A DNA stretch of 64,000 bases from Alphaproteobacteria bacterium (GTDB lineage Bacteria > Pseudomonadota > Alphaproteobacteria > JAAXGF01), in contig JBHHZM010000001.1 in NCBI GenBank assembly GCA_046758065.1, positions 7,822-71,821 of the forward strand. The letters run 5' to 3'. Positions 6,562 through 8,293 of the stretch are shown here, piece after piece. Below the pieces are notes generated by a model. The model saw nothing but the letters and a program-made list of their open reading frames with translations, did no database searches and was not told the origin of the DNA. A program made the position numbers and the translations under genes. Numbering within the stretch: the first letter of the stretch is position 1; each line of letters begins with the position of its first letter.

Positions 6562-6584
6562 CGCCAAACCCTTTACCCCGGGAA

Positions 6585-6610
6585 CCCCGCCGATTCGGCG
6601 GGGTTTTTAT
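6585..6610 (+). terminator. Rho-independent terminator after trxA
   Basis: A GC-rich hairpin (ccccgcc-attc-ggcgggg) is followed by TTTTTAT. Confidence 0.6.
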
Positions 6611-6659
6611 TGAAATCGAGCCAAGTTTCGATCATAATGAACCGATTCGGTAATACGTC

Positions 6660-6693
6660 TTGACAAGGTTACGCCAATTTGGCGTCATATTGC
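6660..6693 (+). promoter_or_regulatory. Putative promoter (TTGACA -35) with an embedded 15-bp perfect palindrome operator
   Basis: TTGACA sits at 6660-6665. The palindrome ACGCCAAtTTGGCGT at 6671-6685 lies between -35 and a TCATAT-like -10 element. The ATG at 6695 follows immediately, suggesting a near-leaderless mRNA. Confidence 0.35.
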
Positions 6694-6694
6694 C

Positions 6695-8293
6695 ATGAAA
6701 CTCAGGGAATATCTCAAGGACGCAGAGCTCTCGCTTACCGAATTCGCCGAAACGGTGGGAGTGAGCGAGCAGTCGATGAGCCGCTACGTCGCCGGCAAGC
6801 GCCTGCCGCGGCCCGAGATCATGCGGCGCATCACCCGGGCGAGCGGCGGACGGGTCGAGGCCAACGACTTCTTCGCCGACGAGACCGCCGGGGACGGGGC
6901 GCCGCCGTTGCCTGCCAACGGTCCGTCGCGCGGTGGTGCGAGGGCCGACGCCGCGGCGGCGTTTCGCGCCGCCCATCCCGACGTCGCCACGGTCGATATG
7001 CTGGTCTGCGACATGTGCGGAATCCTGCGCGGCAAGCGCCTCGCCGCGGACGCGCTCGGCAAGCTGTTCGGCGACGGGGTTCTCATGCCGGGCTCGACCT
7101 TCGCGCTCGACGTCACCGGCAACGATGTCGACGCCACCGGGATCGGTCTGGTCAGCGGCGATCCCGATTTCGTCTGCCGTCCGGTGGCGGAGACGCTCAA
7201 GCCCGTGCCCTGGGCGCGCGGGCCGGCGGGGCAGGTGCTCGCCAGCATGTACACCGATGACGGCAACCCCTATTTTCTCGATCCCCGCCACGTGCTCGCC
7301 GGGGTGTTGCGGCGCTTCGACGAACTGGGCCTGACTCCGGTGGTGGCGATCGAGCTCGAATTCTATCTGCTCGACCGCGAGCGCGACGACGAGGGCCGGC
7401 CGCAGCCGCCGCTCGGCCCCGACGGACGCCGCGCCAGCGCCACCCAGGTCTACGCCATGGACGACCTCGACGATGCCGCGGAGATCCTCGATGACATCGC
7501 CCGGGCCTGTGCGCTCCAGGGCATTCCGGCGAGCGTCGCGATCGCCGAATACGCGCCGAGCCAGTACGAGATCAACCTTCAGCACGAGGCCGACGCGGTC
7601 GCCGCCTGCGATCATGCAGTGCTGCTGAAACGCGCGGTCAAGGGGGTGGCGCGACGGCACGGACTCGACGCGACCTTCATGGCCAAGCCGTTTCCCGAGA
7701 TCGCGGCGAACGGACTCCACATCCACGTCAGCCTGCTCGACCGCGACGGCGCCAACATCTTCGACGACGGCCGCGACGACGGCGACCGCAATCTGTGGCA
7801 CGCGGTCGGCGGCCTCAAGGCGACGATGGGCGAAGCGATGCTCGTGTTCGCGCCGAACGCCAACTCGTTCCGGCGGCTGAGGCCGGGAAACTACGCGCCG
7901 CTCGCCACCGCCTGGGGCTTCAACAACCGCACCGTGGCGCTGCGCGTGCCGGCGGCGCGGGGCAGCAACCGGCGCATCGAACACCGCACGGCGGGCGCCG
8001 ACGCCAACCCCTATCTCGCCGCGGCGGCGGTGCTCGCGGGCATCCACCACGGCCTCGCGCGGGAGATCGATCCCGGCCCGCCGACGCGCGGCAACGCCTA
8101 CGAACAGCACCCGCCGACGCTGCCCTCGAACTGGCTCGACGCGATCCGCGTCCTCGAAGCGGCCGAGATTTTACCCGACTATCTGGGCGCCGATTACCTG
8201 CGCGTCTACGCGGCCTGCAAGCGCCACGAGTATGCCGGGTTCAGCGCCCGCATCACGCCCACCGAGTACGACTGGTACCTGAGGGCGTTGTAG
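6695..8293 (+). CDS. Glutamine synthetase family protein (PuuA/GlnT-like, gamma-glutamyl-amine ligase type) fused to an N-terminal XRE-family helix-turn-helix domain
   Basis: Residues 1-60 look like a Cro/C1 HTH (MKLREYLKDAELSLTEFAETVGVSEQSMSRYVAGKRLP). A low-complexity linker follows. The GS catalytic domain then runs without any stop codon (MLVCDMCGILRGKR...NGLHIHVSLLD...). Confidence 0.8.
   Translation: MKLREYLKDAELSLTEFAETVGVSEQSMSRYVAGKRLPRPEIMRRITRASGGRVEANDFFADETAGDGAPPLPANGPSRGGARADAAAAFRAAHPDVATVDMLVCDMCGILRGKRLAADALGKLFGDGVLMPGSTFALDVTGNDVDATGIGLVSGDPDFVCRPVAETLKPVPWARGPAGQVLASMYTDDGNPYFLDPRHVLAGVLRRFDELGLTPVVAIELEFYLLDRERDDEGRPQPPLGPDGRRASATQVYAMDDLDDAAEILDDIARACALQGIPASVAIAEYAPSQYEINLQHEADAVAACDHAVLLKRAVKGVARRHGLDATFMAKPFPEIAANGLHIHVSLLDRDGANIFDDGRDDGDRNLWHAVGGLKATMGEAMLVFAPNANSFRRLRPGNYAPLATAWGFNNRTVALRVPAARGSNRRIEHRTAGADANPYLAAAAVLAGIHHGLAREIDPGPPTRGNAYEQHPPTLPSNWLDAIRVLEAAEILPDYLGADYLRVYAACKRHEYAGFSARITPTEYDWYLRAL

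What the first reader, a model, noticed from the sequence alone, without database searches (positions are those of the whole stretch)
6660..8293. XRE-type HTH domain fused in frame to a glutamine-synthetase-like enzyme, with a perfect palindrome in its own promoter
The first 60 residues are a convincing Cro/C1 HTH. A Pro/Gly/Ala linker follows, then a complete GS catalytic domain (PuuA/GlnT-like) with no intervening stop. A 15-bp perfect palindrome (ACGCCAATTTGGCGT) sits between the TTGACA -35 element and the start codon. This suggests an autoregulating enzyme-repressor, an arrangement that is not common for GS-family proteins.
Basis: seen in the sequence. Interest (0 to 1): 0.55.

Follow-up and report, generated by a model that had tools for sequence, protein, structure and literature searches.

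The report
Self-repressing polyamine-type enzyme with phage-like DNA-binding head
A real, evolutionarily conserved gene fuses a phage Cro-type DNA-binding domain to a PuuA-like (glutamine-synthetase-family) enzyme, and the protein most likely shuts off its own leaderless promoter through two conserved palindromic sites, which makes it a candidate 'enzyme that is also a repressor'.

Summary
ORF 6695-8293 (+) encodes 532 aa: a Cro/C1 HTH (aa 1-60), a disordered Ala/Pro/Gly linker (aa 62-81) and a complete GS-family enzyme. The enzyme part is 43% identical to E. coli PuuA over 453 aa, and its metal, ATP and glutamate residues are intact. The fusion is not an artefact. About 50 homologue clusters (49-72% identity) carry it, mostly at the same trxA | gene | folC position, and the HTH codons are under purifying selection.

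The 15-bp palindrome (6671-6685) is real but not rare on its own: about 0.1 is expected by chance in this intergenic region. Comparison gives it meaning. A dyad TTRCCR-N3-YGGYAA is about 100-fold enriched upstream of fused genes, at fixed centres -17 and -49. The same dyad sits at -17 upstream of stand-alone phage/prophage Cro-like relatives of the HTH.

Promoter geometry (-35 6660-6665, N17, -10 6683-6688, 6 nt, ATG) is conserved and implies a leaderless mRNA.

Best reading: a negatively autoregulated gamma-glutamyl-amine ligase built by capture of a Cro-type promoter-operator-repressor cassette. Whether substrates modulate DNA binding, and which amine is used, remain untested. I found no paper describing this fusion.

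The parts
6583..6611 (+). Intrinsic terminator of the upstream trxA gene (AACCCCGCCGA-T-TCGGCGGGGTT followed by a T-run). It isolates the fusion gene as its own transcription unit.
   Evidence: Perfect 11-bp arms I4; sequence read; trxA is Pfam Thioredoxin, E 1e-34.
6639..6653 (.). Operator A: dyad GAACCGATTCGGTAA, centre -49 relative to the ATG. It lies just upstream of the -35.
   Evidence: 10/12 match to TTRCCR-N3-YGGYAA. Sites at centre -49 also occur in L097, L098 and L099. Best PWM hit in the 64-kb window, 17.9 bits.
6660..6665 (+). -35 hexamer TTGACA.
   Evidence: TTGACA/TTGACG/TTGATA sits at the identical distance (35 nt from the ATG) in L001, L003, L043, L097, L098 and L099.
6671..6685 (.). 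It fills the promoter spacer and overlaps the -10.
   Evidence: The CC-N5-GG core is invariant in 8 aligned promoters. A dyad at centre -16 to -18 is present in L003, L016, L097-L100 and in stand-alone HTH genes L019, L020, L060, L062, L104 and L105.
6683..6688 (+). Inferred -10 hexamer CGTCAT (weak), 17 nt after the -35 and 6 nt before the ATG.
   Evidence: The same position reads TATAAT in L100, TTTGAT in L001 and TATGAA in L003. This is geometry only; no TSS data exist.
6695..8293 (+). Coding sequence of the 532-aa HTH-linker-GS-like fusion protein, probably translated from a leaderless mRNA.
6695..6874 (+). Cro/C1 (XRE) HTH domain, aa 1-60. The recognition-helix region is SEQSMSRYVAGKR.
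   Evidence: Pfam HTH_3 and HTH_31 above cut-off. Best PHROG is phrog_35, transcriptional repressor. Five-helix model with pLDDT of about 85-96. 2287 mostly 60-100-aa relatives.
6875..6937 (+). Flexible Ala/Pro/Gly-rich linker, about aa 61-81.
   Evidence: pLDDT below 50 for aa 62-81. Length and sequence vary among homologues.
6938..8290 (+). Complete PuuA/PauA-type GS-family enzyme: N-terminal beta-grasp domain plus catalytic domain (Gln-synt_C, aa 195-528).
   Evidence: 43% identity to E. coli PuuA over aa 79-530 with 2 gaps. Catalytic residues conserved. Foldseek top hits are GS-like enzymes, E 1e-32.
6744..6758 (.). Candidate third, weak operator C inside the coding sequence (TCGCCGAAACGGTGG, centre +57), in helical phase with A and B (32 and 73 bp apart).
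   Evidence: 9/12 match. Not significant in the window itself (synonymous-codon test P = 0.27). It is 10-12/12 with rare TTT/GTA codons in L098, L099, L003 and the marine clade, P 0.001-0.009.

Best explanation
The gene encodes one polypeptide. A phage Cro-type helix-turn-helix domain is tethered by a flexible linker of about 20 residues to a full PuuA/PauA-type gamma-glutamyl-amine ligase, an ATP-dependent member of the glutamine synthetase family.

Transcription starts at or next to the A of the ATG, giving a leaderless mRNA. The promoter is TTGACA-N17-CGTCAT.

HTH domains brought together in pairs by the oligomeric enzyme body bind two dyad operators of type TTRCCR-N3-YGGYAA. GS-family enzymes are hexamers or dodecamers. 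Operator B (centre -17) covers the spacer and the -10, and operator A (centre -49) abuts the -35. The two lie three helical turns apart. Occupancy blocks RNA polymerase, so the enzyme represses its own synthesis.

The whole 5' module (promoter, operators, leaderless start and HTH) looks like a captured prophage cro-type cassette placed in frame in front of an older trxA-linked puuA-like gene.

Shown here: the fusion, its conservation, the intact catalytic residues, and the conserved operator motif and promoter geometry.

Inferred: DNA binding by this HTH, repression, the leaderless start, the oligomeric state, the amine substrate, and any modulation of DNA binding by substrates.
For: Fusion real and old. 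About 50 fused clusters at 49-72% identity. Conserved synteny addB-addA-trxA > gene > < folC-accD-trpAB in L001, L003, L004, L097, L100 and L115. HTH dN/dS is 0.08-0.42 in 9 of 10 pairs.

Enzyme. 43% identity to characterised E. coli PuuA. E220/E222/E285/E292/H342/H344/R394/R412/R417/E429/R431 align with GlnA E129/E131/E212/E220/H269/H271/R321/R339/R344/E357/R359. GlnA D50 and flap E327 are Pro and Tyr, exactly as in PuuA. Unfused relatives at 57% identity sit in puu/pau polyamine clusters.

Operator. Matches of at least 11/12 to the dyad occur at 4.81 per kb in the 120 nt upstream of 26 fused genes, against 0.045 per kb elsewhere in the same loci. 17 of 26 loci have a hit of at least 10/12. 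Centres are fixed at -17 and -49 in the window's clade. The CC-N5-GG core is invariant in 8 aligned promoters. Stand-alone 64-96-aa homologues of the HTH in prophage-like and viral contigs carry the same dyad at centre -17 or -18, plus further copies. The HTH is the only element these loci share. The recognition-helix motif [ST]-[EQ]-x-[AS]-[MI]-S-R-Y is shared by fused and stand-alone forms.

Leaderless start. The -35 to ATG distance is exactly 35 nt in window, L001, L003, L004, L043, L098 and L099. The -10 is TATAAT in L100. There is no Shine-Dalgarno sequence.

No Rfam family and no significant RNA structure in the leader region.
Against: No experimental data of any kind.

The window's site B matches the family consensus only 8/12, because its outer bases are AC..GT rather than TT..AA. 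The inferred -10 (CGTCAT) is weak.

A second promoter-like site (TTGAAA-N17-CATAAT, 6610-6638) would give a 50-nt leader instead.

Nine of 26 fused loci lack a clear upstream dyad. These include the marine clade and the cultured Zavarzinia-type locus, so autoregulation through this motif is not universal.

In prophage relatives a divergent CI-like repressor could be the protein that reads the same dyads.

No other puu-pathway gene lies in the 64-kb window, so the physiological substrate is unknown.
Confidence: 0.68

Rival explanations
1. Trigger-enzyme or one-component sensor. The main role of the HTH is to control a wider regulon, for example polyamine uptake and catabolism genes elsewhere in the genome. 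The GS-like body serves as the ligand sensor, and substrate, ATP or product binding, or a change of oligomeric state, releases or strengthens DNA binding. Autoregulation is then only one output.
For: Same evidence for DNA binding as above. Unfused orthologues are controlled by separate XRE-cupin PuuR-type repressors in puu/pau clusters, so a regulatory need exists. Three dyads in helical phase (32, 73 and 105 bp apart) would suit a multivalent oligomer. Established precedents are PutA, BirA, NadR and GS-GlnR/TnrA (PMC9249791, PMC6978683).
Against: No additional strong sites in the 64-kb window: the next PWM hits are at most 12.4 bits and look random. Extra sites in relatives fall inside addA or folC coding sequence. 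Whole genomes could not be scanned. Nothing here bears on ligand responsiveness.
Confidence: 0.3
2. The dyads are read mainly by another protein with the same specificity, for example a resident prophage CI/Cro. The fused HTH would then be a relic that no longer binds DNA, or would serve another role such as nucleoid tethering.
For: The same dyad occurs in prophage-type cI/cro regions and in viral contigs, so other proteins with this specificity exist in nature.
Against: HTH residues, including the recognition helix, are conserved under purifying selection across the fused clade. The dyads keep fixed promoter positions next to the fused gene in lineages where no partner repressor is adjacent.
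Confidence: 0.07
3. Annotation or assembly artefact. The real product starts downstream and the HTH is not part of the enzyme. Alternatively, the palindrome is a chance feature or an RNA hairpin.
For: A perfect palindrome of this size is expected about 0.1 times in this spacer. Some gene callers report 453-495-aa versions in related clusters.
Against: The continuous frame is conserved in about 50 clusters from independent assemblies. There is no ATG between aa 43 and aa 102. PuuA homology starts only at aa 79, after the linker. dN/dS is below 1 in the HTH. Specific bases (CC/GG), not just pairing potential, are conserved in the dyad. The RNA fold z-score is -1.1. No Rfam hit reaches threshold.
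Confidence: 0.03

Closest known systems
E. coli PuuA (glutamate-putrescine ligase) with its separate repressor PuuR; Pseudomonas PauA1-7
   Same: The enzyme part is 43% identical to PuuA end to end. It has the same replacements at the ammonium-site positions (GlnA D50 to Pro, E327 to Tyr) and all metal, ATP and glutamate ligands. The closest unfused relatives sit in puu/pau clusters with PuuB-, PuuC- and PuuD-like genes and an XRE-cupin PuuR-like repressor. Both systems pair an XRE-type HTH with a PuuA-type enzyme.
   Different: Here the HTH is covalently fused to the enzyme. It has no cupin sensor domain and is not specifically related to PuuR (E 0.025-0.06). The gene is monocistronic and lies away from any other puu gene. 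The NCBIfam PuuA equivalog score is 235 against a cut-off of 650, so the substrate may differ.
Trigger enzymes with a built-in DNA-binding domain: PutA (RHH + proline dehydrogenase), BirA (wHTH + biotin ligase), NadR (HTH + NMN adenylyltransferase)
   Same: One polypeptide carries an N-terminal DNA-binding domain and a metabolic enzyme, with operators in the promoter of its own gene or pathway. The concept is reviewed in PMC6978683.
   Different: The enzyme family (GS-like) and the HTH type (Cro/XRE) differ. Coupling between catalysis and DNA binding is demonstrated for those proteins and is entirely untested here.
Bacillus/Listeria glutamine synthetase acting on the GlnR and TnrA repressors
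   Same: A GS-family oligomer is physically coupled to an HTH repressor that controls the GS gene itself (PMC9249791).
   Different: There the coupling is non-covalent and depends on feedback-inhibited GS. The repressors are MerR-type, and the enzyme is a true ammonia-assimilating GS. Here the coupling is a gene fusion to a PuuA-type paralogue.
Phage Cro/CI immunity switches (lambda, 434, P22), including the leaderless cI transcript from PRM
   Same: A small all-helical XRE HTH. Multiple 15-bp dyad operators overlap the -35 and -10. The operator next to the start codon is consistent with a leaderless transcript. Stand-alone relatives lie next to a divergent CI-like (HTH + S24-like) gene and in viral contigs.
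   Different: In the window there is no partner repressor and no phage genes. The HTH is welded to a housekeeping-locus enzyme, so dimerisation and cooperativity would have to come from the enzyme body.

Membership tests
Glutamine synthetase superfamily, PuuA/PauA gamma-glutamyl-amine ligase branch | Gln-synt_C catalytic domain preceded by the beta-grasp N-domain | tested here: met
   Pfam PF00120 E 1.3e-101. Alignment to PuuA runs from aa 79 to 530. The AF2 model matches GS-like structures, TM about 0.72-0.87, E 1e-32.
Glutamine synthetase superfamily, PuuA/PauA gamma-glutamyl-amine ligase branch | Conserved metal, ATP and glutamate ligands (GlnA E129, E131, E212, E220, H269, H271, R321, R339, R344, E357, R359) | tested here: met
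   All are present as E220, E222, E285, E292, H342, H344, R394, R412, R417, E429 and R431. They are invariant across 32 homologues.
Glutamine synthetase superfamily, PuuA/PauA gamma-glutamyl-amine ligase branch | Ammonium-site residues of true GS (D50, flap E327) replaced as in PuuA | tested here: met
   Pro132 and Tyr400 match PuuA's Pro and Tyr at the aligned positions.
PuuA equivalog (gamma-glutamylputrescine synthetase in the strict sense) | Score above the NCBIfam NF045547 cut-off, and genomic linkage to puuB/C/D | tested here: not met
   235 bits against a 650-bit cut-off. tblastn finds no PuuB, PuuC, PuuD, PuuE, PuuP or PuuR homologue in the 64-kb window. I file it as PuuA-like with an undetermined substrate.
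PuuA equivalog (gamma-glutamylputrescine synthetase in the strict sense) | ATP-dependent gamma-glutamylation of putrescine or another amine | not testable with these tools
   Needs an enzyme assay.
Cro/C1 (XRE) HTH DNA-binding domain | Sequence match to HTH_3/HTH_31 and a five-helix fold | tested here: met
   HTH_3 29.1 bits (cut-off 23) and HTH_31 30.2 bits (cut-off 27). Helices at 3-9, 14-21, 25-32, 40-49 and 56-59 with high pLDDT. 2287 relatives, mostly 60-100 aa.
Cro/C1 (XRE) HTH DNA-binding domain | Sequence-specific binding to a dyad operator | tested here: inconclusive
   Only comparative evidence: a conserved dyad upstream of fused and stand-alone homologues.
Trigger enzyme (bifunctional enzyme-repressor) | Enzyme and DNA-binding domain in one polypeptide, with operators in its own promoter | tested here: met
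   Domain architecture. Operators A and B lie at -49 and -17. Occupancy by this protein is inferred.
Trigger enzyme (bifunctional enzyme-repressor) | DNA binding switched by substrate or catalytic state | not testable with these tools
   Requires EMSA or ITC with ligands, or in vivo reporters.
Leaderless mRNA | Transcription start at the A of the start codon | tested here: inconclusive
   The geometry -35 / N17 / -10 / 6 nt / ATG is conserved in 7 relatives and there is no SD. A competing upstream promoter-like site exists. No TSS data.

The most novel reading that the evidence does not exclude
The GS-like hexamer or dodecamer is a multivalent, substrate-gated repressor. Its six to twelve tethered Cro-type heads engage three in-phase operators (-49, -17, +57) and wrap the promoter. 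Polyamine, glutamate or ATP turnover, or ligand-driven assembly and disassembly of the oligomer, sets DNA occupancy. This would make it the first GS-family enzyme that is itself a transcription factor, possibly governing a polyamine regulon. It would have been created by domestication of a phage cro promoter-operator-repressor cassette.
Probability: 0.25. Interest if true: 0.72.

Novelty: new variant of a known kind. Interest (0 to 1): 0.55.

Why it matters
Enzyme-repressor fusions such as PutA, BirA and NadR are textbook cases of metabolism talking directly to transcription. GS is the classic enzyme that controls repressors in trans (GlnR and TnrA).

A covalent Cro-HTH/PuuA-type fusion would add a new enzyme family to this class. 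It is conserved across several alphaproteobacterial lineages and has a recognisable operator. It also offers a clean system for asking how a large oligomeric enzyme presents DNA-binding heads.

The case also documents a concrete evolutionary route. An entire phage cro cassette (promoter, operators, leaderless start and repressor) appears to have been captured in frame by a housekeeping-locus gene.

Practically, databases name these proteins either 'glutamine synthetase' or 'helix-turn-helix domain-containing protein'. Both names hide half of the protein.

Tried and rejected
- Palindrome significance within the window: not significant alone.
- Exact or near copies of the palindrome elsewhere in the window: none meaningful.
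- PWM scan of the 64-kb window for a regulon: only the gene's own two sites stand out.
- Rfam and RNA folding of the leader (riboswitch or attenuator idea): nothing.
- Relationship of the HTH to PuuR: no specific similarity.
- Search for puuB/C/D/E/P/R in the window: none.
- Word-index homology search with the 63-aa HTH alone: no candidates, a tool limitation. I replaced it with the exhaustive HMMER search.
- Split-gene version (small HTH gene next to an unfused GS): not found. The unfused syntenic orthologue in L117 starts 16 nt after trxA with no HTH at all.
- Intragenic +57 site: suggestive in relatives but not significant in this window, so I list it only as a candidate.
- Five literature searches for an HTH-GS/PuuA fusion found nothing relevant. 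This covers only the searchable open-access library.
Full report
**1. What is in the sequence**

The + strand carries an ORF from the ATG at 6695 to the TAG at 8291-8293 (532 aa). An in-frame TGA lies at 6638-6640, and no ATG, GTG or TTG lies between it and 6695, so 6695 is the first possible start.

Pfam finds a Cro/C1 HTH at aa 3-51: HTH_31 at 30.2 bits (cut-off 27) and HTH_3 at 29.1 bits (cut-off 23). It finds Gln-synt_C at aa 195-528 with E 1.3e-101.

An AlphaFold2 model built on 32 homologues (pLDDT 87.4, pTM 0.81) shows three parts:
- a five-helix N-terminal domain, aa 3-59;
- a segment of pLDDT below 50 at aa 62-81, the Ala/Pro/Gly linker;
- a GS fold whose best PDB matches are the 1-naphthylamine gamma-glutamylating GS-like enzyme NpaA1 and archaeal and Gram-positive GSI (E about 1e-32).

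The gene is a separate unit. A perfect terminator hairpin with a T-run (6583-6611) closes the upstream trxA gene. Downstream, folC converges on the gene. The neighbourhood is addA-trxA > gene > < folC-accD-trpA-trpB-trpF.

**2. The fusion is real and old**

A search of 5.8 billion proteins returned about 50 clusters among the best 120 that cover the full length, HTH included. Their identities run from 49 to 72%. They include MAGs labelled Rhodospirillaceae, Sneathiellales and Minwuiaceae, and the cultured Zavarzinia compransoris (WP_166646575.1).

The position trxA > gene is kept in L001, L003, L004, L097, L098, L100 and L115, and a convergent folC follows in most of these.

HTH residues F17, V23, R30, Y31, G34, P38, A49, G52 and D58 are at least 90% conserved. 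The linker varies freely in length and sequence. dN/dS over HTH codons 1-59 is 0.08-0.42 in nine of ten pairs.

No relative shows a small HTH gene separated from the GS gene. The unfused syntenic orthologue in L117 starts 16 nt after trxA and has no HTH at all. A rough NJ tree of the GS parts puts the fused proteins apart from 57 gammaproteobacterial unfused relatives. Two small unfused groups are nested among the fused ones (no bootstrap). This pattern fits one gain with later losses but does not prove it.

**3. The enzyme part**

It is 43% identical to experimentally characterised E. coli PuuA over 453 residues with two gaps (E 8e-127).

In an alignment with E. coli GlnA and PuuA, every metal, ATP and glutamate ligand of GS is present: E220, E222, E285, E292, H342, H344, R394, R412, R417, E429 and R431. 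GlnA Asp50 and the flap Glu327, which handle ammonium, are Pro132 and Tyr400, as in PuuA. The enzyme is therefore probably active on an amine other than ammonia.

It does not reach the strict PuuA equivalog cut-off (235 against 650 bits). No other puu gene lies in the window.

Unfused relatives at 57% identity lie in typical puu/pau polyamine clusters. These hold a PotFGHI-type ABC transporter, a class-III aminotransferase, a second GS-like gene, a Peptidase_C26 (PuuD-like), a DAO oxidase (PuuB-like) directly downstream, an aldehyde dehydrogenase and an XRE-cupin PuuR-like repressor. A polyamine or a related amine is the best guess for the substrate. This is an inference.

**4. The palindrome and the operator motif**

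ACGCCAA-T-TTGGCGT (6671-6685) is a perfect palindrome. Such palindromes are common in this GC-rich DNA: 59 observed against 51 simulated, or about 0.11 expected in the intergenic region.

I anchored the upstream regions of 26 fused loci on their start codons. This revealed a recurrent dyad, TTRCCR-N3-YGGYAA:
- Matches of at least 11/12 occur at 4.81 per kb in the 120 nt upstream, against 0.045 per kb in the remaining 265 kb of the same loci.
- 17 of 26 loci have a hit of at least 10/12.
- In the window's own clade (window, L097, L098, L099) sites lie at centres -49 and -17.
- In an alignment of eight promoters, the CC-N5-GG core of the -17 site, two bases of the -35 and the ATG are the invariant columns.

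The window's site A (6639-6653, GAACCGATTCGGTAA) is the top PWM hit of the whole 64-kb window at 17.9 bits. Both window sites were among the 28 used to build the PWM, so this ranking is slightly circular.

**5. Linking the motif to the HTH**

An exhaustive HMMER search with the 64-aa HTH found 2287 relatives. Nearly all are 60-100 aa.

Stand-alone relatives carry the same dyad centred at -17 or -18, usually with one or two further copies upstream. They come from a Rhizobium genome (L019), a Magnetovibrio MAG (L020), metagenomes (L059-L062) and two 36-44-kb viral contigs (L104, L105).

In L060 the neighbour is a divergent CI-like repressor (HTH + S24-like, phrog_4). The best PHROG for both the stand-alone proteins and the window's HTH is phrog_35. 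The recognition-helix motif ([ST]-[EQ]-x-[AS]-[MI]-S-R-Y) is shared.

The HTH is the only element common to these loci, so the dyad is most simply its operator. The window's HTH is not specifically related to PuuR.

**6. Promoter and leaderless start**

The distance from the first base of the -35 (TTGACA, 6660) to the ATG is exactly 35 nt in window, L001, L003, L004, L043, L098 and L099. This corresponds to -35 / 17 nt / -10 / 6 nt / ATG.

The -10 is weak in the window (CGTCAT, 6683-6688) but reads TATAAT in L100. There is no Shine-Dalgarno sequence. With the A of the ATG as +1, the hexamers fall at -35..-30 and -12..-7. This is the geometry expected for a leaderless mRNA.

Operator B covers the spacer and the -10. 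Operator A abuts the -35 and lies 32 bp (three helical turns) from B. Both are repressing positions.

The consensus scan also flags TTGAAA-N17-CATAAT at 6610-6638. Its +1 would lie inside site A. It is not conserved in relatives, and I keep it as an unresolved alternative.

Rfam and RNA folding give nothing for the leader.

**7. A possible third site**

A dyad-like sequence lies at centre +57, inside the codons for F-A-E-T-V of the HTH. It is 73 bp from B and 105 bp from A, so all three are in helical phase.

In the window it scores 9/12 and is explainable by coding constraints (P = 0.27). In L098, L099, L003 and the marine Rhodospirillaceae clade it reaches 10-12/12 by using rare TTT and GTA codons (P 0.001-0.009). 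The marine clade has no upstream consensus site, so this may be its operator. I list it as a candidate only.

**8. Mechanism, and what is shown versus inferred**

Shown: the architecture, its conservation, the intact catalytic residues, the conserved dyads and the conserved promoter geometry.

Inferred:
- The HTH binds the dyads.
- Binding represses the gene.
- The mRNA is leaderless.
- The GS-like body, hexameric or dodecameric by analogy with the family (PMC9397018 and the structures), pairs the heads and supplies cooperativity.
- The 5' module is a captured cro cassette.

Untested: whether substrates gate DNA binding (the true 'trigger enzyme' behaviour of PutA, BirA and NadR; PMC6978683), whether other promoters are targets, and which amine is ligated.

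**9. Exceptions**

Nine of 26 fused loci lack a clear upstream dyad. The additionally examined Zavarzinia-type locus also lacks one. There the gene sits in another context, next to a PuuR-like XRE-cupin gene. Autoregulation by this motif is therefore a property of part of the family, which includes the window's clade.

**10. Novelty and verdict**

Five full-text searches found no description of an HTH-GS or HTH-PuuA fusion. Databases name these proteins 'glutamine synthetase' or 'helix-turn-helix domain-containing protein'.

Each part is ordinary, and enzyme-repressor fusions are a known kind. This combination, with a conserved operator and a phage-derived 5' cassette, is a new variant.

I score interest at 0.55. 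It is a well-supported, experimentally tractable candidate, but nothing here shows unusual biochemistry yet.

Noticed in passing
window 6583-6611: The trxA terminator hairpin (AACCCCGCCGA-T-TCGGCGGGGTT plus T-run) contains the core GCCGATTCGGC, which fits the loose operator-core pattern RCCRNTTYGGY. Four of the 16 window matches to that pattern cluster in 6589-6756. For the terminator this is probably coincidence.
   Followed up: partly
window 6610-6638: A second sigma-70-like promoter match, TTGAAA-N17-CATAAT (10/12). Its predicted start would fall inside operator A. It is not conserved in relatives.
   Followed up: partly
L004 5930-6000, L008, L010, L018 (marine Rhodospirillaceae clade): These fused genes lack the upstream dyad. 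They share a conserved box CGCGACAATGTGACGG about 70 nt upstream, and they carry lineage-specific inverted repeats between a TTGG -35-like element and the -10 (for example CCCCTtccgAGGGG). They also have a perfect 12/12 dyad at +57 inside the coding sequence. The function of the box and of the repeats is unexplained.
   Followed up: partly
L100 7664-11067: Three transposase genes (Y1_Tnp, DDE_Tnp_1, Transposase_mut) are inserted between the fused gene and folC in one relative. This breaks the otherwise conserved synteny.
   Followed up: no
L116 6001-8202: In the Zavarzinia compransoris-type locus the fused gene sits next to a convergent PuuR-like XRE-cupin gene and a TetR/P450 pair rather than trxA/folC. 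It has no consensus dyad upstream. This is a cultured relative that could be used for experiments.
   Followed up: partly
L117 5670-7362: An alphaproteobacterial MAG has an unfused 453-aa orthologue starting 16 nt after trxA at the same syntenic site. This suggests the HTH cassette was either inserted in frame between trxA and an older puuA-like gene, or later lost.
   Followed up: partly
window 8099-8101 (Tyr469): Tyr469 (GNAYE) aligns with Tyr397 of E. coli GlnA, which is the adenylylation site. PuuA has Leu at this position. The Tyr is common in the fused clade. Its significance is unknown.
   Followed up: no
L004 7932-7946: A perfect 12/12 dyad (TTGCCATTTCGGCAA) lies inside the 3' part of the convergent folC gene in the marine relative. 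It may be chance or a distal site.
   Followed up: no
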